From contig CAZFSS010000015.1 in the NCBI GenBank assembly GCA_964521715.1, forward strand, positions 10,060 through 74,059: a stretch of 64,000 bases of DNA, in the 5' to 3' direction. A program made the translations under genes and the position numbers. Of the stretch, positions 1 through 3,914 are shown piece by piece; the stretch's first letter is position 1, and each line of letters starts with the position of its first letter. The notes beneath the pieces are model-generated. The model was not told where the DNA came from, ran no database searches, and saw only the letters and a list, made by a program, of their open reading frames with translations. Source of the stretch: an uncultured candidatus Brocadiaceae bacterium. GTDB lineage: Bacteria > Planctomycetota > Brocadiia > SM23-32.

Positions 1-72
1 GTCGAGCATTACACGGCAGTGGCGAATGAACGCGCCCAGATCCGGGAAGCACTCCACAAGCCGGTAAGCTAA
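1..72 (+). CDS. 3' end of a truncated hypothetical ORF (VEHYTAVANERAQIREALHKPVS*)
   Basis: Open frame from base 1 to TAA at 70-72, same strand as the rest of the element. Confidence 0.4.
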   Translation, partial: VEHYTAVANERAQIREALHKPVS

Positions 73-108
73 GTTGAGATGGATTGCCCCCCTGACGAAA
101 CGTGGCGA

Positions 109-327
109 ACGGCGCCGGCCCGTGGGAAACGGGCTCGCTGCGGGGGACCTCGGCATGTCCCGCGCGCCGTGGGGTCGGCGGGGTGAATCCGCCCAACCCT
201 CGACTTCTGATCATGGGGCACGTCGCCGCTCTGGCCGAGGAGTGCCCCCCCGCGCTCGTAACGCGGCCGGCGACAGCGTCTATGGTACGCCGGGGTTGGG
301 CCGGGCCTCTTGTAGGTACGGCCCGAC
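109..327 (+). ncRNA. Candidate structured RNA (three-way junction plus five tandem hairpins); strand assumed
   Basis: Pairings 109-115/164-170 enclosing 118-123/129-134 and 140-148/157-163; then 177-181/189-193, 215-221/242-248, 250-254/262-266, 267-272/288-293, 295-303/319-327. Confidence 0.4.
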
Positions 328-350
328 TTCCGGCGTGGAGGAGATGAGTC

Positions 351-710
351 ATGTCGGTGACGGCGAGCGAGAACCTTGGAGGATGGCAAGTAGTCTACGA
401 GTGGCTGTCGGATGGTTCGGGGGATGCGTCGGTTGCGGATACCACACAACTGCGCGGCTACGTGATGCGCATGGTCACGGTGCCTGATGCGGTTGCAGTG
501 CCGGCGGATGATTACGATGTGGAGCTTCACGACGGCGACGGGGCGGATGTTCTGGCCGGCGCCGGAGCGAACCGTGACGAGGCAACGCCAGAGAGCGTGA
601 ATCCGAGTGCACCGCCCTATGTGAACGGCAGTTTGACGCTGGTGGTGAGCAACGCGGGCGACGCGAAGGCCGGAAGTGTGCGGGTCTATCTGCGCAAGTC
701 GAAGGACTGA
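351..710 (+). CDS. Hypothetical beta-rich protein, possibly phage virion/head-module associated
   Basis: SD GGAGGAG 337-343; 119 aa; motifs P-x-DDYDV-x-L-x-D and GAGANRD recall an uncharacterised phage family (recall, not searched). Confidence 0.65.
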   Translation: MSVTASENLGGWQVVYEWLSDGSGDASVADTTQLRGYVMRMVTVPDAVAVPADDYDVELHDGDGADVLAGAGANRDEATPESVNPSAPPYVNGSLTLVVSNAGDAKAGSVRVYLRKSKD

Positions 711-712
711 CC

Positions 713-1045
713 ATGAATGACGAGGGGCTGCGCGAAGAGGAGGAGCTGGATTTTGCGCGGGAGAGGGCGCTTGATCTGGTTGCCGAACTGGAGGTAGGTG
801 AGCTGCGTCGGGGTTGCCCGGGCACCATCAGTAAGATCATCGAAGCGGCACGCGGCGAAGGCGCGGCGGCAGAGCGGGACCGGGCGCGGCAATTGGAGCG
901 GGCATTGCGCGGGGATCCACGCACGGCGCTGGAAGCCATCCTTCGCGGGCTCTCCGTCGAAGAGGCGAAGGGGATGGCCTACGACCGGGTCCAAGCGCGG
1001 ATCAGGGAGCTTGAGCGCAGGCCGGATCAAGCTGAGGACAGCTGA
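713..1045 (+). CDS. Hypothetical charged, helical protein (110 aa)
   Basis: Starts 2 nt after upstream stop, AAGGA upstream; E/R/A-rich. Confidence 0.65.
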   Translation: MNDEGLREEEELDFARERALDLVAELEVGELRRGCPGTISKIIEAARGEGAAAERDRARQLERALRGDPRTALEAILRGLSVEEAKGMAYDRVQARIRELERRPDQAEDS

Positions 1046-1067
1046 AATTGGACAATGTGTCCAATTT
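1045..1067. promoter_or_regulatory. Perfect 10-bp inverted repeat, candidate operator
   Basis: AAATTGGACA-atg-TGTCCAATTT; AT-rich in a GC-rich background. Confidence 0.5.
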
Positions 1068-1214
1068 GGCGGAGGGTGTCAGGTGCGCGTGCCACAAGAA
1101 TCGCACCCCCAGAGGCGGGGGCAAGGTCGCATGGCGGGACTTTTGTGGCGTAGCGGGGCTCTGGTGACGTGCAGGCGCGATTCTGGCGGCAAGGAGGCAA
1201 GGAGTAGAAAGGGC

Positions 1215-1244
1215 TTGACAAGGACGGCGTGAAAGGAGTATGAT
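1215..1244 (+). promoter_or_regulatory. Sigma70-type promoter
   Basis: TTGACA-18 nt-TATGAT. Confidence 0.7.
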
Positions 1245-1286
1245 CGTGGGTGTGAAGAATCGGCCAGTCAGAACAAGCGGAACTGC

Positions 1287-1606
1287 AACGCCCCGTGTGT
1301 GTGTCGGGGCGTTTCCATGTCGGGCGTCAGGTTCCGGGGCAGGCGACTGTCCCGGCGGCTCAGCCGAGCCGTTCACAGCCTGACGCCCGAGTCTTGTACG
1401 AAAGGAGCAAGGTCAGAGGAGCGCGACGCCCGGGGCCGGCGGCTGGGCCCCACCAGCAATGGCACTGCCGGCCCCGTGGCTGCGCGCATGGAGAGGGAAG
1501 TTCAGGAGTTGGCAAGTTTCGGTGTGGAAGGCGGCCTATTCGCACAGAACAGGCCGGGAAGGGTAGAGCCTGGTGCCGGATCGGAGGAGAAAACCCGAAC
1601 CGGCCA
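1287..1606 (+). ncRNA. Candidate structured leader/sRNA downstream of the 1215-1244 promoter
   Basis: Stems 1287-1295/1305-1313, 1320-1331/1379-1390 (12 bp perfect) enclosing a GCGA-tetraloop hairpin and 1356-1361/1366-1371, long stem 1421-1487, hairpins 1533-1555 and 1571-1606. Confidence 0.45.
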
Positions 1607-1626
1607 CGGGAGGAAAGGAGACGGCG

Positions 1627-1932
1627 ATGGGTACGTTGACGAGGGAGGAGAGGTGTCTGGTGCCGGAGCTGCATGGTCCTGCCTTGGATGTGCTGTTTGA
1701 CGAGTGGCGCATCTACGAAGCGCGGGCGGACAGCGGCTTCCAGCGGCTCACGCGGCAAGTCGTCGTATGGCGCCGCGGGAAGGTCGTGGCGACGCAGGAG
1801 TTCATCGGCCCGGCGGCCATCCTGGTGCCAATCGAGGTTGTCGAGTATCAAACCGATCAGGATGCGGAAGACCAGTACCGGCGCTCCTCTGAACATGAAC
1901 ACCGGCGGGCGGTGGCAGCGCAAGCGGAATGA
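1627..1932 (+). CDS. Hypothetical protein (101 aa)
   Basis: Strong SD AGGAAAGGAG 1611-1620 before ATG 1627; in frame with the 1573..1932 ORF. Confidence 0.6.
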   Translation: MGTLTREERCLVPELHGPALDVLFDEWRIYEARADSGFQRLTRQVVVWRRGKVVATQEFIGPAAILVPIEVVEYQTDQDAEDQYRRSSEHEHRRAVAAQAE

Positions 1933-1984
1933 CGCGCCTTTTTCGCCGGCATGTGCTGAGAAGTAAAGACGGGCTCCGTCCGGG

Positions 1985-2013
1985 TTGACTTCCACCGGAT
2001 CAGGGGTTAGCAT
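1985..2013 (+). promoter_or_regulatory. Sigma70-type promoter upstream of xis-int
   Basis: TTGACT-17 nt-TAGCAT. Confidence 0.5.
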
Positions 2014-2270
2014 ACGAGCGGGAAGATGATGGCAGCGGAGGGGGCGAGAGTACCCCCCCCCCCTTTGGGTCCTTTCAAAGGGAAATGCAGCCGGCAGGTT
2101 GATGGGCTGTGCCCCGAAAACGTGTCACAGGTCGAGATTTTTGGTATCAAACAGTATCAAGAGGCGGGTCGTCTGAAGTAGCAAACGGAGGAAAGGGAAG
2201 GAGGGGAGCGGATGGCCGACGCAATGTCTGATCGGCCAGTGAGGTGTCTGGCATGGAGGGTGGAAGGAGA

Positions 2271-2555
2271 ATGGCAGGGCCGGTCCTTGCGACGGCTGGC
2301 GACATCATTACCGACCTGGCTGAACTGCCGGGGGAGGCGCTTGTTACTCAGGCGTACATAGCCCACGTCCTAGGCGTGACGGCAAGGACGGTGCGCAACA
2401 TGGTTGTGCGCAACGAGCTGCCGGGGCCGATCCAGATGGGCCGGCGGGTCTACTGGGTCGCGGGGGTCCTGCGAACTTACATGCGGGAAGCAGCCGAGCG
2501 GGAAGCAGAAAGGGCGGCGGCGGAGATCCGGCGATACAAGGCACTAAGGCCGTAG
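2271..2555 (+). CDS. AlpA/excisionase-like HTH protein
   Basis: SD AAGGAG before ATG 2271; IAHVLGVTARTVRNMV...LPGPIQMGRRVYW; directly upstream of the integrase. Confidence 0.8.
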   Translation: MAGPVLATAGDIITDLAELPGEALVTQAYIAHVLGVTARTVRNMVVRNELPGPIQMGRRVYWVAGVLRTYMREAAEREAERAAAEIRRYKALRP

Positions 2556-2564
2556 GAGGCTGGC

Positions 2565-3845
2565 GTGGCCTACGTCTTCCGTAGCAAGCGCAAGGATGGC
2601 GCGCCGTATGGGCCCTGGCGCTTCCAGTTCACCGACTGGACCGGGCGACGCCGGACAGCAACCGCCAGTGCCTCAAAGACGCGGACCGAGAAGCTCGCCC
2701 AGGAGGTCGACCTGGAGCACCGACTTATTCGTCAAGGGCTACGGCCTGCGCCGGATCCTCATGCAGAGCACAAGAGGCGTCCCTTCTCGGAGCTTGCAGC
2801 GGAGTACTGCGAGTGGGGCGAAAGTCAGGGCGGGCGTGGTGGCCGGCCCTGGAGTGCAACACATGCCCGGATGCGGCGGACCTATCTGGCATGGTGGCGT
2901 GATAGCTTGCACCTTACGAGCTTAGGCGACCTTGGAGGCTGTCTGCCGCGCGTCGAGAAGGTGTTGCGTGACTTGCAGGGCAAGGGCCTCTCCAACAAGA
3001 CCGTCAGGAACTACGCCGAGGCGCTGATGGCCTTCTGTGGCTGGGGCACCATGCGCGGGTATCTGACCGAGAATCCGCTGAGGGGCCTGCGGGGTTTCGA
3101 CACCACGCCGGGCCACAGGAGGCGGGCGCTCACGCCCGAGGAGATCGGGCGCCTGCTGGAAGTTGCCCCGCCGGATCGGCGCATACTGTATCAGGTCGCC
3201 CTTTGCTCGGGGCTGCGGGCGAATGAACTGAGGTCCCTCACGCCAGCGGACCTGGACACGCAGAAGGGCGGACTACTGCTTCGGCCCGAATGGACGAAGA
3301 ACCGAAAAGGCGGCTTCCAGCCGTTGCCTGTGTGGCTCTTGCGGGAGCTGGCCGACTACGCCACCAGGGACAGAGCGACGGCGGCCTACCGGGAAGCGTA
3401 CGAGCAGGCCCACGCGGTAACGGAGGCGCCGGCTGGGCGCTTGCTATTCGTCCCTTCCCATCCGGCGGGGAGCTTCGACGAAGACTGTGCGGCGGCGGGT
3501 ATCCCAAAGCGAAAGCTCGGGGGCAAAGTAGACTTTCACGCGCTGCGGACGACCTTCGTGACGCTGTTGGACGGGGCTGGCGGCAGCGTAAAGGAGACAC
3601 AGACCTTGGCGCGCCATGCTGATCCCGCCCTAACCTGGAACGTCTACGGGCGGGCCTCAGAGGAGCGCCTTGCGGAACTGGCGGCAGTCGTGGGGGAGGT
3701 TGCGCGGGGGCGCGTACGTTACCCTGAGAGCATACAGGGAGCAGTACGCCGGATGGCCGTAGGCGCGCAAGTCTATGAGGAGCAAGAGGATAGGATGGTC
3801 GGGGCGGCGGGATTTGAACCCGCGATCTCTAGCCCCCCATGCTAG
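2565..3845 (+). CDS. Tyrosine recombinase/integrase
   Basis: SGLRANEL (R), WTKNRK (K), DFHALR (HxxR), ARHADPALTWNVY (H, Y); SD AGGAGG; C-terminus overlaps the tRNA antisense. Confidence 0.95.
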   Translation: MAYVFRSKRKDGAPYGPWRFQFTDWTGRRRTATASASKTRTEKLAQEVDLEHRLIRQGLRPAPDPHAEHKRRPFSELAAEYCEWGESQGGRGGRPWSATHARMRRTYLAWWRDSLHLTSLGDLGGCLPRVEKVLRDLQGKGLSNKTVRNYAEALMAFCGWGTMRGYLTENPLRGLRGFDTTPGHRRRALTPEEIGRLLEVAPPDRRILYQVALCSGLRANELRSLTPADLDTQKGGLLLRPEWTKNRKGGFQPLPVWLLRELADYATRDRATAAYREAYEQAHAVTEAPAGRLLFVPSHPAGSFDEDCAAAGIPKRKLGGKVDFHALRTTFVTLLDGAGGSVKETQTLARHADPALTWNVYGRASEERLAELAAVVGEVARGRVRYPESIQGAVRRMAVGAQVYEEQEDRMVGAAGFEPAISSPPC

Positions 3846-3874
3846 CGCCCTAAGCCAGGCTGGGCCACGCCCCG
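3796..3874 (-). tRNA. tRNA-Pro(GGG)
   Basis: CGGGGCG/CGCCCCG acceptor, anticodon arm CTAGC-ATGGGGG-GCTAG, GGTTCAAATCC T-arm, encoded CCA. Confidence 0.95.
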
Positions 3875-3886
3875 ACCGTCGGCACT

Positions 3887-3914
3887 ATTATAGTCTGCCC
3901 CTCGGAGGAATCAA
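3887..3914 (-). promoter_or_regulatory. tRNA-Pro promoter
   Basis: TTGATT-16 nt-TATAAT on the minus strand, 12 nt before the tRNA. Confidence 0.65.

What the first reader, a model, noticed from the sequence alone, without database searches (positions are those of the whole stretch)
3700..3874. Integrase reading frame runs through the att site and stops inside the tRNA anticodon stem
Seen: about 65 residues follow the catalytic Tyr. The last 17 (MVGAAGFEPAISSPPC*) are largely the antisense of the tRNA 3' half, with TAG at 3843-3845 in the anticodon stem. Int and tRNA transcription converge. Knowledge: att sites inside genes alter proteins on recombination (SSV-type integrases, mycobacteriophage BPs repressor). 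Inference: excision may swap the Int C-terminus (stability or directionality switch), and int mRNA may be retro-regulated by tRNA pairing.
Basis: partly seen in the sequence, partly recalled or inferred. Interest (0 to 1): 0.62.

Follow-up and report, generated by a model that had tools for sequence, protein, structure and literature searches.

The report
Integration truncates the integrase's own gene
The attachment site of this small prophage-like element lies inside the 3' part of its own integrase gene, so insertion into a proline tRNA gene swaps the enzyme's last 106 residues (with a conserved end-piece) for 7 host-encoded ones; this is the arrangement known from myxophage Mx8, found here in a very large uncharacterised family.

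Summary
The int ORF (2565-3845, 426 aa) runs 50 nt into the antisense of tRNA-Pro(GGG) (3796-3874) and stops at a TAG in the 5' arm of the anticodon stem.

I found the second att copy 11.7 kb to the left, outside the window, by walking through public contigs. The shared core is 29 bp (window 3792-3820) and ends 22 nt before the stop codon. The last 7 codons and the stop are therefore host DNA.

In the rebuilt attP the int frame stays open for 525 aa. It passes a second copy of an arm-type repeat and ends in a roughly 30-aa two-helix module, consensus DLxxVVxAWxxLPxxIKxxIxALV.

Five other integrated relatives gave the same in-frame result, with different tRNAs in both orientations. Uninterrupted relatives (P0076, P0078, P0042, P0054) carry the module in one ORF. 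The module alone matches 8,198 cluster representatives and no Pfam or NCBIfam family.

This is the Mx8 IntP-to-IntX arrangement: the gene's structure changes with integration state. His tRNA-pairing idea is not supported, because tRNA orientation varies within the family.

Verdict: a real feature, a new member of a known kind, and a lead to a large undescribed family.

The parts
1..3820 (+). Right-hand 3.8 kb of an 11,728-bp integrated element. The rest lies left of the window, with the attL core at window -7936..-7908 (= L013:147-175). All called genes are on the + strand.
   Evidence: Contig walk L007/L013 with perfect overlaps of 1309 and 2131 nt. Element genes include DUF3102, a weak replication-initiator-like protein and a head-maturation-protease-like protein (phrog_3244, E 2.7e-18).
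2253..2555 (+). Small helix-turn-helix protein directly upstream of int; candidate excisionase.
   Evidence: Pfam HTH_17, E 0.0012, 19.5 bits, below the family cut-off of 27. Position as in xis-int pairs. Inferred, not shown.
2565..3845 (+). int, prophage form, 426 aa.
   Evidence: ORF list and translation. PF00589 E 3.7e-10. 710 homologues at E <= 1e-5. The model of relative P0042 is most like full-length lambda Int 1z1b.
3126..3665 (+). Catalytic domain (residues 188-367), left intact by integration. The catalytic Tyr361 codon is at 3645-3647.
   Evidence: Pfam match residues 188-367 of profile positions 2-171/172. R218, K245, H325, R328 and H351 are invariant and Y361 is at least 90% conserved in alignment A1.
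3731..3753 (+). P-arm repeat (candidate arm-type Int-binding site), inside the int ORF, 38 nt before the core.
   Evidence: CATACAGGGAGCAGTACGCCGGA recurs as CACACAGGGAGCAGTACGGCGGA at L013:318-340, 142 nt after the other core copy. The exact 15-mer occurs only at these two places in 16 kb, and in different reading frames. The same layout is seen in 4 more rebuilt attPs.
3792..3820 (.). att core, attR copy, 29 bp: AGGATGGTCGGGGCGGCGGGATTTGAACC. It covers 4 nt beyond the CCA, the CCA, the discriminator, the acceptor 3' arm, the T-stem 3' arm, the T loop and 2 nt of the T-stem 5' arm.
   Evidence: Identical copy at L013:147-175; the sequences diverge on both sides. Contigs of related genomes without the element break away from the window exactly at 3792, into a flank that is 24/30 (X2) or 23/30 (X4) identical to L013:117-146.
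3821..3845 (+). Host-encoded end of the prophage-form int: the third base of the Pro419 codon, 7 codons (AISSPPC) and TAG.
   Evidence: Lies to the right of the core, inside the tRNA body. The same tail occurs in P0003, a 58%-identical Int at the same tRNA.
3796..3874 (-). tRNA-Pro(GGG), intact. Bases 3796-3820 are supplied by the element; the rest is host DNA.
   Evidence: ARAGORN. Rfam RF00005, 58.1 bits.
3887..3914 (-). Promoter-like site for the tRNA, pointing towards int.
   Evidence: Consensus scan, 10 of 12 matches; 0.1 expected in shuffles. A consensus match only.

Best explanation
The element's attP lies inside the 3' part of its own integrase gene, between the catalytic domain and a conserved C-terminal module.

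Shown:
- The free (attP) form of the gene would encode a 525-aa Int. Its parts, in order, are: an arm-binding N-domain, a core-binding domain, the catalytic domain (to about residue 367), a helix following the catalytic Tyr, a linker that doubles as attP (P-arm repeat, 29-bp tRNA-derived core, P'-arm repeat), and a two-helix end-module of about 30 aa (VLRIVEAADLPDHVKAEVMALVEG).
- Crossover in the core with tRNA-Pro(GGG) leaves a 426-aa Int. Its last 7 residues and stop come from the antisense of the tRNA body.
- The remaining 106 codons move 11.7 kb away to the other end of the prophage. There they form an orphan ORF of 115 codons that begins at the ATG inside the core.
- Excision would rejoin the two parts.

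- The full-length form is the integration-proficient enzyme.
- The truncated form, with the upstream HTH protein, is enough for excision.
- Each recombination event would thus rewrite the enzyme's gene and bias what it does next.
For: - Second att copy and 29-bp core. The assembly was checked by error-free overlaps.
- The two ends belong together: a 15-23-nt direct repeat lies 43 nt before one core copy and 145 nt after the other. Four of the five other rebuilt attPs have the same layout: 14-20-nt repeats, 49-79 nt before and 121-167 nt after the core.
- The rebuilt int is 525 aa. In the Int frame the module's codons have GC1/2/3 = 0.83/0.34/0.80, a coding signature.
- Five other integrated elements rebuild in frame into the same module: L003 (tRNA-Ala), L005 (tRNA-Leu), L006 (tRNA-Arg), L057 and L093 (tRNA-Leu).
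- After the core only the Int frame is open, in 6 of 6 cases. The chance of an open frame in shuffles was 0.0008-0.11 per case.
- Uninterrupted single ORFs carry the module: P0076/L038, P0078/L105 (core and flanking repeats inside the ORF, no tRNA on the contig), partial P0266, and the short-linker P0041, P0042 and P0054.
- In the AF2 model of P0042 (mean pLDDT 91.9) the last helix scores about 90 over 391-400 and about 75 over 401-410. The closest fold is full-length lambda Int.
- At least 61 of 120 homologues have tails translated from tRNA or tmRNA 3' ends. 18 of 85 loci overlap a called antisense tRNA or tmRNA.
- The module profile finds 8,198 cluster representatives. The best 150 carry it at the C-terminus, and 22 of them have a tRNA-derived peptide upstream in the same ORF.
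- Mx8 precedent: attP lies within int and integration creates a new 3' end (PMC6070905; PMC4383910). Mx8 Int reads its core as TGLEPV at residues 416-421 of 533, with 112 residues after it; ours is GFEP, with 106 after.
Against: - No read or contig with the attP junction of this element was found. Every contig that reaches the core shows the integrated form, and no served sequencing run holds the element. The 525-aa form is a reconstruction.
- Three contiguous int-core-module junctions in relatives (L072, L076, L043) have the module in a different frame from int.
- Three randomly sampled small module ORFs have an in-frame stop just upstream and no tRNA nearby.
- Our module lacks the near-invariant Trp.
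- The linker itself has no clear codon signature.
- No functional data exist for this family. The Mx8 primary papers could not be read here.
Confidence: 0.75

Rival explanations
1. The module is a separate small protein, the first gene after attP (for example an accessory or directionality factor). It would be translated from its own start, here the ATG inside the core. Continuity with int would be frequent but not required.
For: - The orphan ORF starts at an ATG in the core in our element and in L076, P0173 and P0190 (MVEAAGIEP..., MVGARGFEP...).
- Three contiguous junctions are out of frame.
- The best 150 module hits are all proteins of 28-215 aa.
- Three sampled ORFs are bounded by an upstream stop, with no tRNA nearby.
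Against: - 6 of 6 rebuilt attPs are in frame and stop-free only in the Int frame.
- P0042 and P0054 join the module to the catalytic domain with almost no linker.
- Cores read in the sense orientation (L003, L005, L006) offer no ATG.
- The 40-100 residues before the module are unconserved and of low complexity, as expected of a linker rather than of a protein's body.
- Gene callers necessarily report short ORFs for the detached half of a split gene.
Confidence: 0.2
2. The overlap is incidental. In GC-rich DNA the int frame simply runs on to the next stop, and neither the tail nor the distal ORF has any function.
For: The stop position is fixed by host tRNA sequence. The host-encoded tails of integrated relatives vary from 0 to about 130 residues. 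The window is about 65% GC.
Against: The module is conserved across Ints only 36-50% identical, across tRNA targets in both orientations, and in a locus whose post-core stretch is only 48% GC (L057). The module region has a coding GC pattern. The module matches 8,198 cluster representatives.
Confidence: 0.05
3. The overlap serves RNA-level control. Either convergent transcription from the tRNA promoter, or pairing of the tRNA with the antisense 3' end of int mRNA, regulates int.
For: 50 nt of perfect complementarity, and a strong promoter-like site for the tRNA pointing at int.
Against: tRNA orientation relative to int is not conserved in the family: at least 15 of 120 homologue tails, and 4 of the 6 rebuilt elements that carry the module, read the core in the sense orientation. 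The complementarity is an automatic result of integration at a tRNA 3' end. No expression data could be obtained.
Confidence: 0.05

Closest known systems
Myxococcus phage Mx8 integrase (IntP / IntX)
   Same: - attP core and flanking arm sequences lie inside the int coding sequence, and integration into a tRNA gene gives int a new 3' end (PMC6070905; PMC4383910; titles of Tojo 1996, Magrini 1999 and Tojo & Komano 2003 as cited there).
- The geometry is nearly identical. Mx8: 533 aa, core read as TGLEPV at residues 416-421, 112 residues after it. Ours: 525 aa, GFEP at 416-419, 106 residues after it. The core is read in the same frame relative to the T loop.
- A small gene sits directly upstream of int: uoi in Mx8, the HTH_17-like ORF here.
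   Different: - Homology is only at superfamily level: hhalign probability 92%, E 8e-7, over the core-binding and catalytic domains. tblastn against 50,697 phage records did not return Mx8.
- I saw no WxxLP module in the Mx8 tail by eye.
- The host is a Planctomycetota-like metagenome organism, and the element is 11.7 kb rather than a 49.5-kb phage.
- The functional effect is measured for Mx8 and untested here.
SSV-type ('suicidal') integrases of archaeal viruses and plasmids
   Same: attP lies inside the integrase ORF, and integration partitions the gene into two pieces at the two ends of the provirus (PMC7253208 abstract; PMC4383910).
   Different: In the SSV type the split disrupts the integrase gene into two parts (PMC7253208 abstract). 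Here the whole catalytic domain, with all catalytic residues, stays in one piece and only a C-terminal appendage is removed. The host is bacterial, not archaeal.
Integration-dependent immunity of mycobacteriophage BPs (from my own knowledge; paper not read here)
   Same: An att site inside a coding sequence makes the protein's C-terminus depend on the integration state.
   Different: In BPs the gene is the repressor, and the removed piece is an ssrA-like degradation tag. Here the gene is int itself. The removed piece is a conserved helical module, and neither form ends in an ssrA-like tag.
Lambda-type tyrosine integrases with arm-type sites
   Same: Three-domain fold: Foldseek's best match is full-length lambda Int 1z1b, E 7.5e-11, for relative P0042. 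attP has direct repeats on both sides of the core.
   Different: Lambda attP lies outside int, and lambda Int ends shortly after the catalytic Tyr (own knowledge). This family adds a linker and an end-module of about 30 aa, with attP embedded in the linker's coding DNA.

Membership tests
Tyrosine recombinase / phage integrase (PF00589) | Catalytic domain with the R-K-H-R-H-Y residues | tested here: met
   PF00589 E 3.7e-10, 40.3 bits, above the cut-off of 27.1. R218, K245, H325, R328 and H351 are invariant and Y361 is at least 90% conserved in A1.
Lambda-Int-like integrases with arm binding | N-terminal arm-binding domain, and arm-type repeats flanking the attP core | tested here: inconclusive
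   The fold of relative P0042 is most like full-length lambda Int. One direct repeat lies on each side of the core in ours and in 4 of the 5 other rebuilt attPs. Binding was not tested.
Mx8-type self-modifying integrase gene | attP core lies inside the int ORF | tested here: met
   Core 3792-3820 lies 22 nt upstream of the stop codon. The second copy is at L013:147-175.
Mx8-type self-modifying integrase gene | Integration replaces a long C-terminal segment with a short host-encoded one | tested here: met
   106 residues are replaced by 7 in the reconstruction. The same holds in 5 other elements. The junction itself was not observed in reads.
Mx8-type self-modifying integrase gene | Prophage form has altered or lower activity; the C-terminal segment is dispensable for excision | not testable with these tools
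   Needs recombination assays. Known for Mx8 only through the review PMC6070905 and paper titles.
Mx8-type self-modifying integrase gene | Close sequence relationship to Mx8 Int | tested here: not met
   tblastn of the 525-aa form against the 'phages' collection did not return Mx8. hhalign gives only domain-level similarity. It works like Mx8 Int but is not a close relative.
SSV-type integrases | Integration splits the gene so that no intact integrase gene remains | tested here: not met
   The prophage-form ORF keeps the full PF00589 domain and the Tyr.
Integration-dependent immunity (BPs type) | attP inside the repressor gene; the viral form carries a C-terminal degradation tag | tested here: not met
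   The interrupted gene is int. The attP-form tail ends ...RHEETQQGG and the prophage form ...ISSPPC.
tRNA-gene integration, T-loop/T-stem sublocation (Islander classes) | [quoted passage not shown] | tested here: met
   The core covers part of the T stem, the T loop, the acceptor 3' arm, the CCA and 4 further nt. The tRNA scores 58.1 bits. Classes as in PMC4383910, Table 1.

The most novel reading that the evidence does not exclude
The Mx8 arrangement is not a myxophage curiosity. It would be the standard design of a very large, undescribed family of tRNA- and tmRNA-targeting integrases in Planctomycetota and other environmental phyla. In this family the whole attP (arms and core, in either orientation) is embedded in the coding linker between the catalytic domain and a conserved two-helix end-module of about 30 aa (DLxxVVxAWxxLPxxIKxxIxALV), which is absent from Pfam and NCBIfam. 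Attaching and detaching that module by the enzyme's own reaction would act as a built-in switch of directionality or commitment.
Probability: 0.45. Interest if true: 0.75.

Novelty: new member of a known kind. Interest (0 to 1): 0.58.

Why it matters
How tyrosine integrases are biased towards integration or excision is usually explained by separate directionality factors. Mx8 showed a second way: the reaction rewrites the enzyme's own gene. It has remained close to a single case.

Here the same gene anatomy appears in an unrelated phylum, in six independently rebuilt elements, with a detachable module that has thousands of relatives and no annotation. If the module matters for activity, this control principle is widespread. 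The many small "hypothetical" ORFs next to tRNA genes would then be the detached ends of integrase genes. Prophage and island finders could use the module as a marker for the far end of an element.

The system is also compact (int plus about 250 bp of attP inside it) and easy to test in E. coli.

Tried and rejected
I reached the left end by walking through Logan contigs instead.
- No second att copy lies inside the window.
- Sequencing runs: the four runs offered hold only related tRNA-Pro genes, not the element, and a search with int alone listed none. No reads were available to show attP or attB junctions, or expression.
- A look-up of all contigs carrying the neighbouring DUF3102 gene gave only the integrated form.
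- The 'phages' collection has no close relative.
- The viral-contig scan gave 7 loci. None had a tRNA-derived tail or the module.
- L103, the 58%-identical Int at the same tRNA-Pro in a related genome, has different cargo and no detectable second att copy within 10 kb.
- L102 (a 40%-identical Int) rebuilds from a 17-bp repeat into a tail without the module. It was not counted as support.
- The Mx8 primary papers (PMC178153, PMC93896, PMC93897, PMC151502) are not held. Details beyond the review are from memory and are marked as such.
- Degron idea: no ssrA-like ending was seen in either form, and nothing more could be tested.

Full report
**1. The observation**

- The window has one tRNA gene, tRNA-Pro(GGG), on the minus strand at 3796-3874 including an encoded CCA. 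Rfam's tRNA model places it at 3799-3874 with 58.1 bits.
- The + strand ORF 2565-3845 encodes 426 aa and matches PF00589 over residues 188-367.
- The catalytic Tyr is Y361 (TAC at 3645-3647), so 65 residues follow it.
- The ORF overlaps the tRNA by 50 nt. Mapping the cloverleaf onto the + strand puts the anticodon-stem 5' arm at 3845-3841, so TAG 3843-3845 lies in that arm.
- A promoter-like site (10 of 12 matches) sits just upstream of the tRNA and points at int.

**2. Finding the other att**

- I walked left using exact-protein look-ups of the leftmost ORFs. L007 extends 6,153 nt beyond the window start, and L013 a further 1,930 nt. The overlaps of 1,309 and 2,131 nt have no mismatch.
- L013:147-175 is identical to window 3792-3820 (AGGATGGTCGGGGCGGCGGGATTTGAACC, 29 bp), with divergence on both sides. 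The element is 11,728 bp.
- The core covers 4 nt beyond the CCA, the CCA, the discriminator, the acceptor 3' arm, the T arm's 3' half, the T loop and two bases of the T stem. This is the T-region class of tRNA integration sites (PMC4383910).
- Contigs from related genomes that lack the element align to the window only from 3792 rightwards. To the left they continue into sequence that is 24/30 (X2) or 23/30 (X4) identical to L013:117-146. That flank is therefore the native neighbour of the tRNA, and 3792 is the true boundary.

**3. What recombination does to int**

- The core ends at 3820, 22 nt before the stop codon. The prophage-form Int therefore ends in 7 host-encoded residues (AISSPPC).
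- Joining the int side to the sequence that follows the other core copy gives a frame that stays open for 525 codons. The attP-form tail is ...GFEP TAVAKAER...TTEEHTGSSTADGAPDVEDVLRIVEAADLPDHVKAEVMALVEGVRRE...
- The detached part is an ORF of 115 codons at the far end (L013:150-497). It starts at the ATG inside the core, in the same frame.
- In that frame the last ~35 codons have a clear coding composition (GC1/2/3 = 0.83/0.34/0.80). The linker before them does not.
- A 23-nt direct repeat (exact 15-mer ACAGGGAGCAGTACG) lies 38-43 nt before the core on the int side and 142-145 nt after it on the far side. These are its only two copies in 16 kb, and they are read in different frames, so the repeat is a DNA element. 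It is the expected signature of arm-type sites. It also shows independently that the two ends belong to one attP.

**4. Relatives**

*Tails of homologous integrases*
- The 525-aa form finds 710 integrases at E <= 1e-5, mostly 380-470 aa.
- At least 61 of the best 120 have tails that are translations of tRNA or tmRNA 3' ends. All three antisense frames (GxEP, RRxESNP, GGNRTR) and two sense frames (GSxPxxST, GFxSR) occur.
- 18 of 85 fetched loci overlap a called antisense tRNA or tmRNA.
- Reading through att is thus a family habit. The host-encoded remainder varies at random.

*Uninterrupted single ORFs with the same end*
- P0076 ends ...LALVVEAWPTLPDAIKTDILALVEG. P0078 ends ...LAKLAKIWPKLPEHIKAAIKALVKS. 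P0041, P0042 and P0054 carry the same end with short linkers.
- On P0078's contig there is no tRNA. The ORF contains a tRNA-like core (TGGAGGCGGGGGGATTCGAA) flanked by 14-nt direct repeats. This is a natural attP-form gene.

*Rebuilt attPs in other integrated elements*
- I found both att copies in six further integrated elements.
- Five rebuild in frame into the module: L003 (34-bp core, tRNA-Ala, sense), L005 (23 bp, tRNA-Leu, sense), L006 (28 bp, tRNA-Arg, sense), L057 (18 bp, sense) and L093 (27 bp, tRNA-Leu, antisense).
- L102, the most distant, does not.
- After the core only the Int frame is open, in 6 of 6 cases. The other frames have 1-6 stops, and shuffled sequence is open with probability 0.0008-0.11 per case.
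- Four of these five also have a 14-20-nt direct repeat 49-79 nt before and 121-167 nt after the core.

**5. The module**

- A 30-column profile of 13 instances finds 8,198 cluster representatives at E <= 0.001 among 1.84 billion.
- The best 150 are 28-215 aa and carry the module at their C-terminus. 22 of them have a recognisable tRNA-derived peptide upstream in the same ORF, for example MVEAAGIEP..., MVGARGFEP......GGGIRTH....
- One hit, P0266, is the C-terminal half of an Int with P arm, core, P' arm and module in one frame.
- Pfam and NCBIfam have no family for the module.
- An AlphaFold model of the short-linker relative P0042 (mean pLDDT 91.9) shows two extra helices after the helix that follows the catalytic Tyr. 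The last one scores about 90 over 391-400 and about 75 over 401-410. The closest solved fold is full-length lambda Int.

**6. Caveats**

- Three contiguous int-core-module junctions (L072, L076, L043) have the module out of frame with int. They could be tandem arrays of different elements, or cases where the module is made separately.
- Three small module ORFs sampled at random have a stop shortly upstream and no tRNA nearby. One of them sits right after a host ATPase gene, which fits an element end at a non-tRNA site.
- Our own module has Ala where the near-invariant Trp sits.
- No attP junction of this element was seen. All contigs reaching the core are in the integrated form, and no served run holds the element.

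**7. Comparison with what is known**

- The closest precedent is myxophage Mx8. Its attP lies within int, integration creates a new 3' end, and the integrase is altered rather than inactivated (PMC6070905). The Islander authors note that some integrases (Mx8, SSV) extend across attP (PMC4383910).
- In the Mx8 record the Int ORF reads its tRNA-derived core as TGLEPV at residues 416-421 of 533, with 112 residues after it. This geometry almost coincides with ours.
- The two integrases are related only at domain level, and I saw no WxxLP module in the Mx8 tail by eye.
- SSV-type integrases also carry attP inside the gene, but integration disrupts the integrase gene itself (PMC7253208 abstract). 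The BPs system alters a repressor. Both fail as memberships.
- From memory (not checked here): Magrini et al. 1999 described IntX as a less active form and called this reversible covalent modification of the enzyme's gene. Tojo & Komano 2003, as its title says, found the IntP C-terminal segment unnecessary for excision.

**8. Verdict**

- It is not supported in its RNA-pairing extension, because the orientation of the tRNA relative to int varies within the family.
- The gene-level mechanism is well supported by sequence. The functional consequence is inferred by analogy with Mx8.
- The locus is a new member of a known kind. The breadth of the family and its unannotated end-module are the parts worth following up.

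Noticed in passing
L013:147-244 (window -7936..-7839): ARAGORN calls a 94-nt 'tRNA-Glu' on the minus strand at the attL end. It is built on the displaced tRNA-Pro 3' fragment and is almost certainly a pseudo-call.
   Followed up: no
window 3750-3773 and homologue tails: Most homologues share the peptide (R/K)xAVGAE just before the tRNA-derived core; ours reads RRMAVGAQ. It is often preceded by CAxSV(H/Q), which recurs after the core (P0078: QKCAMSVQ / QKCAICVH; L093: SAHIVH twice). At least part of this apparent protein conservation is the DNA-level arm repeat.
   Followed up: partly
L103:10001-11302 and flanks: A related genome with the same host neighbours (YjbQ, PCMT genes) carries a different element at the same tRNA-Pro. 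That element has a D5-type primase-helicase and an HTH_3 repressor-like gene. Its Int is 58% identical and has the identical host-encoded tail. The site is used by several elements.
   Followed up: partly
P0123-P0126 (module search hits): Some small ORFs carry two copies of the end-module in tandem. They may be scars of successive integrations, or of recombination between elements.
   Followed up: no
L072:7925-8351, L076:1024-1356, L043:4096-4413: These are contiguous int-core-module junctions in which the module is in another frame than int. In L076 the module ORF starts at an ATG at the start of the core (MVEAAGIEP...). They could be tandem arrays, separate translation or frameshifting.
   Followed up: partly
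L074:6300-6370: A module ORF is preceded by an inverted repeat made of a tRNA 3' end in the sense orientation and then the antisense orientation (TTCGATTCCCCCCGCCTCCAC...GTGGAGGCGGGGGGAATCGAA). The Int on that contig is of the short-tailed type and appears unrelated to it.
   Followed up: no
L110-L112 versus L013:846-1274: Contigs from other runs carry the same attL end and DUF3102 gene but a 127-aa gene in place of the 142-aa one. The element has variants within the sampled population.
   Followed up: no
L013:127-140 and loose ends at window 3792: The host flank next to the tRNA 3' end holds a small hairpin (GCTCGC-CGTT-GCGAGC). It is conserved in the X4 relative, with only the loop changed; in X2 the stem sequence differs. 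It may be a processing or termination element of the tRNA transcript.
   Followed up: no
L007:5221-6225 (window -932..73): A 334-aa protein matches a head-maturation-protease PHROG (E 2.7e-18), yet no terminase, portal or tail gene was recognised in the 11.7-kb element. This fits a satellite-like or very small virus-like element.
   Followed up: partly
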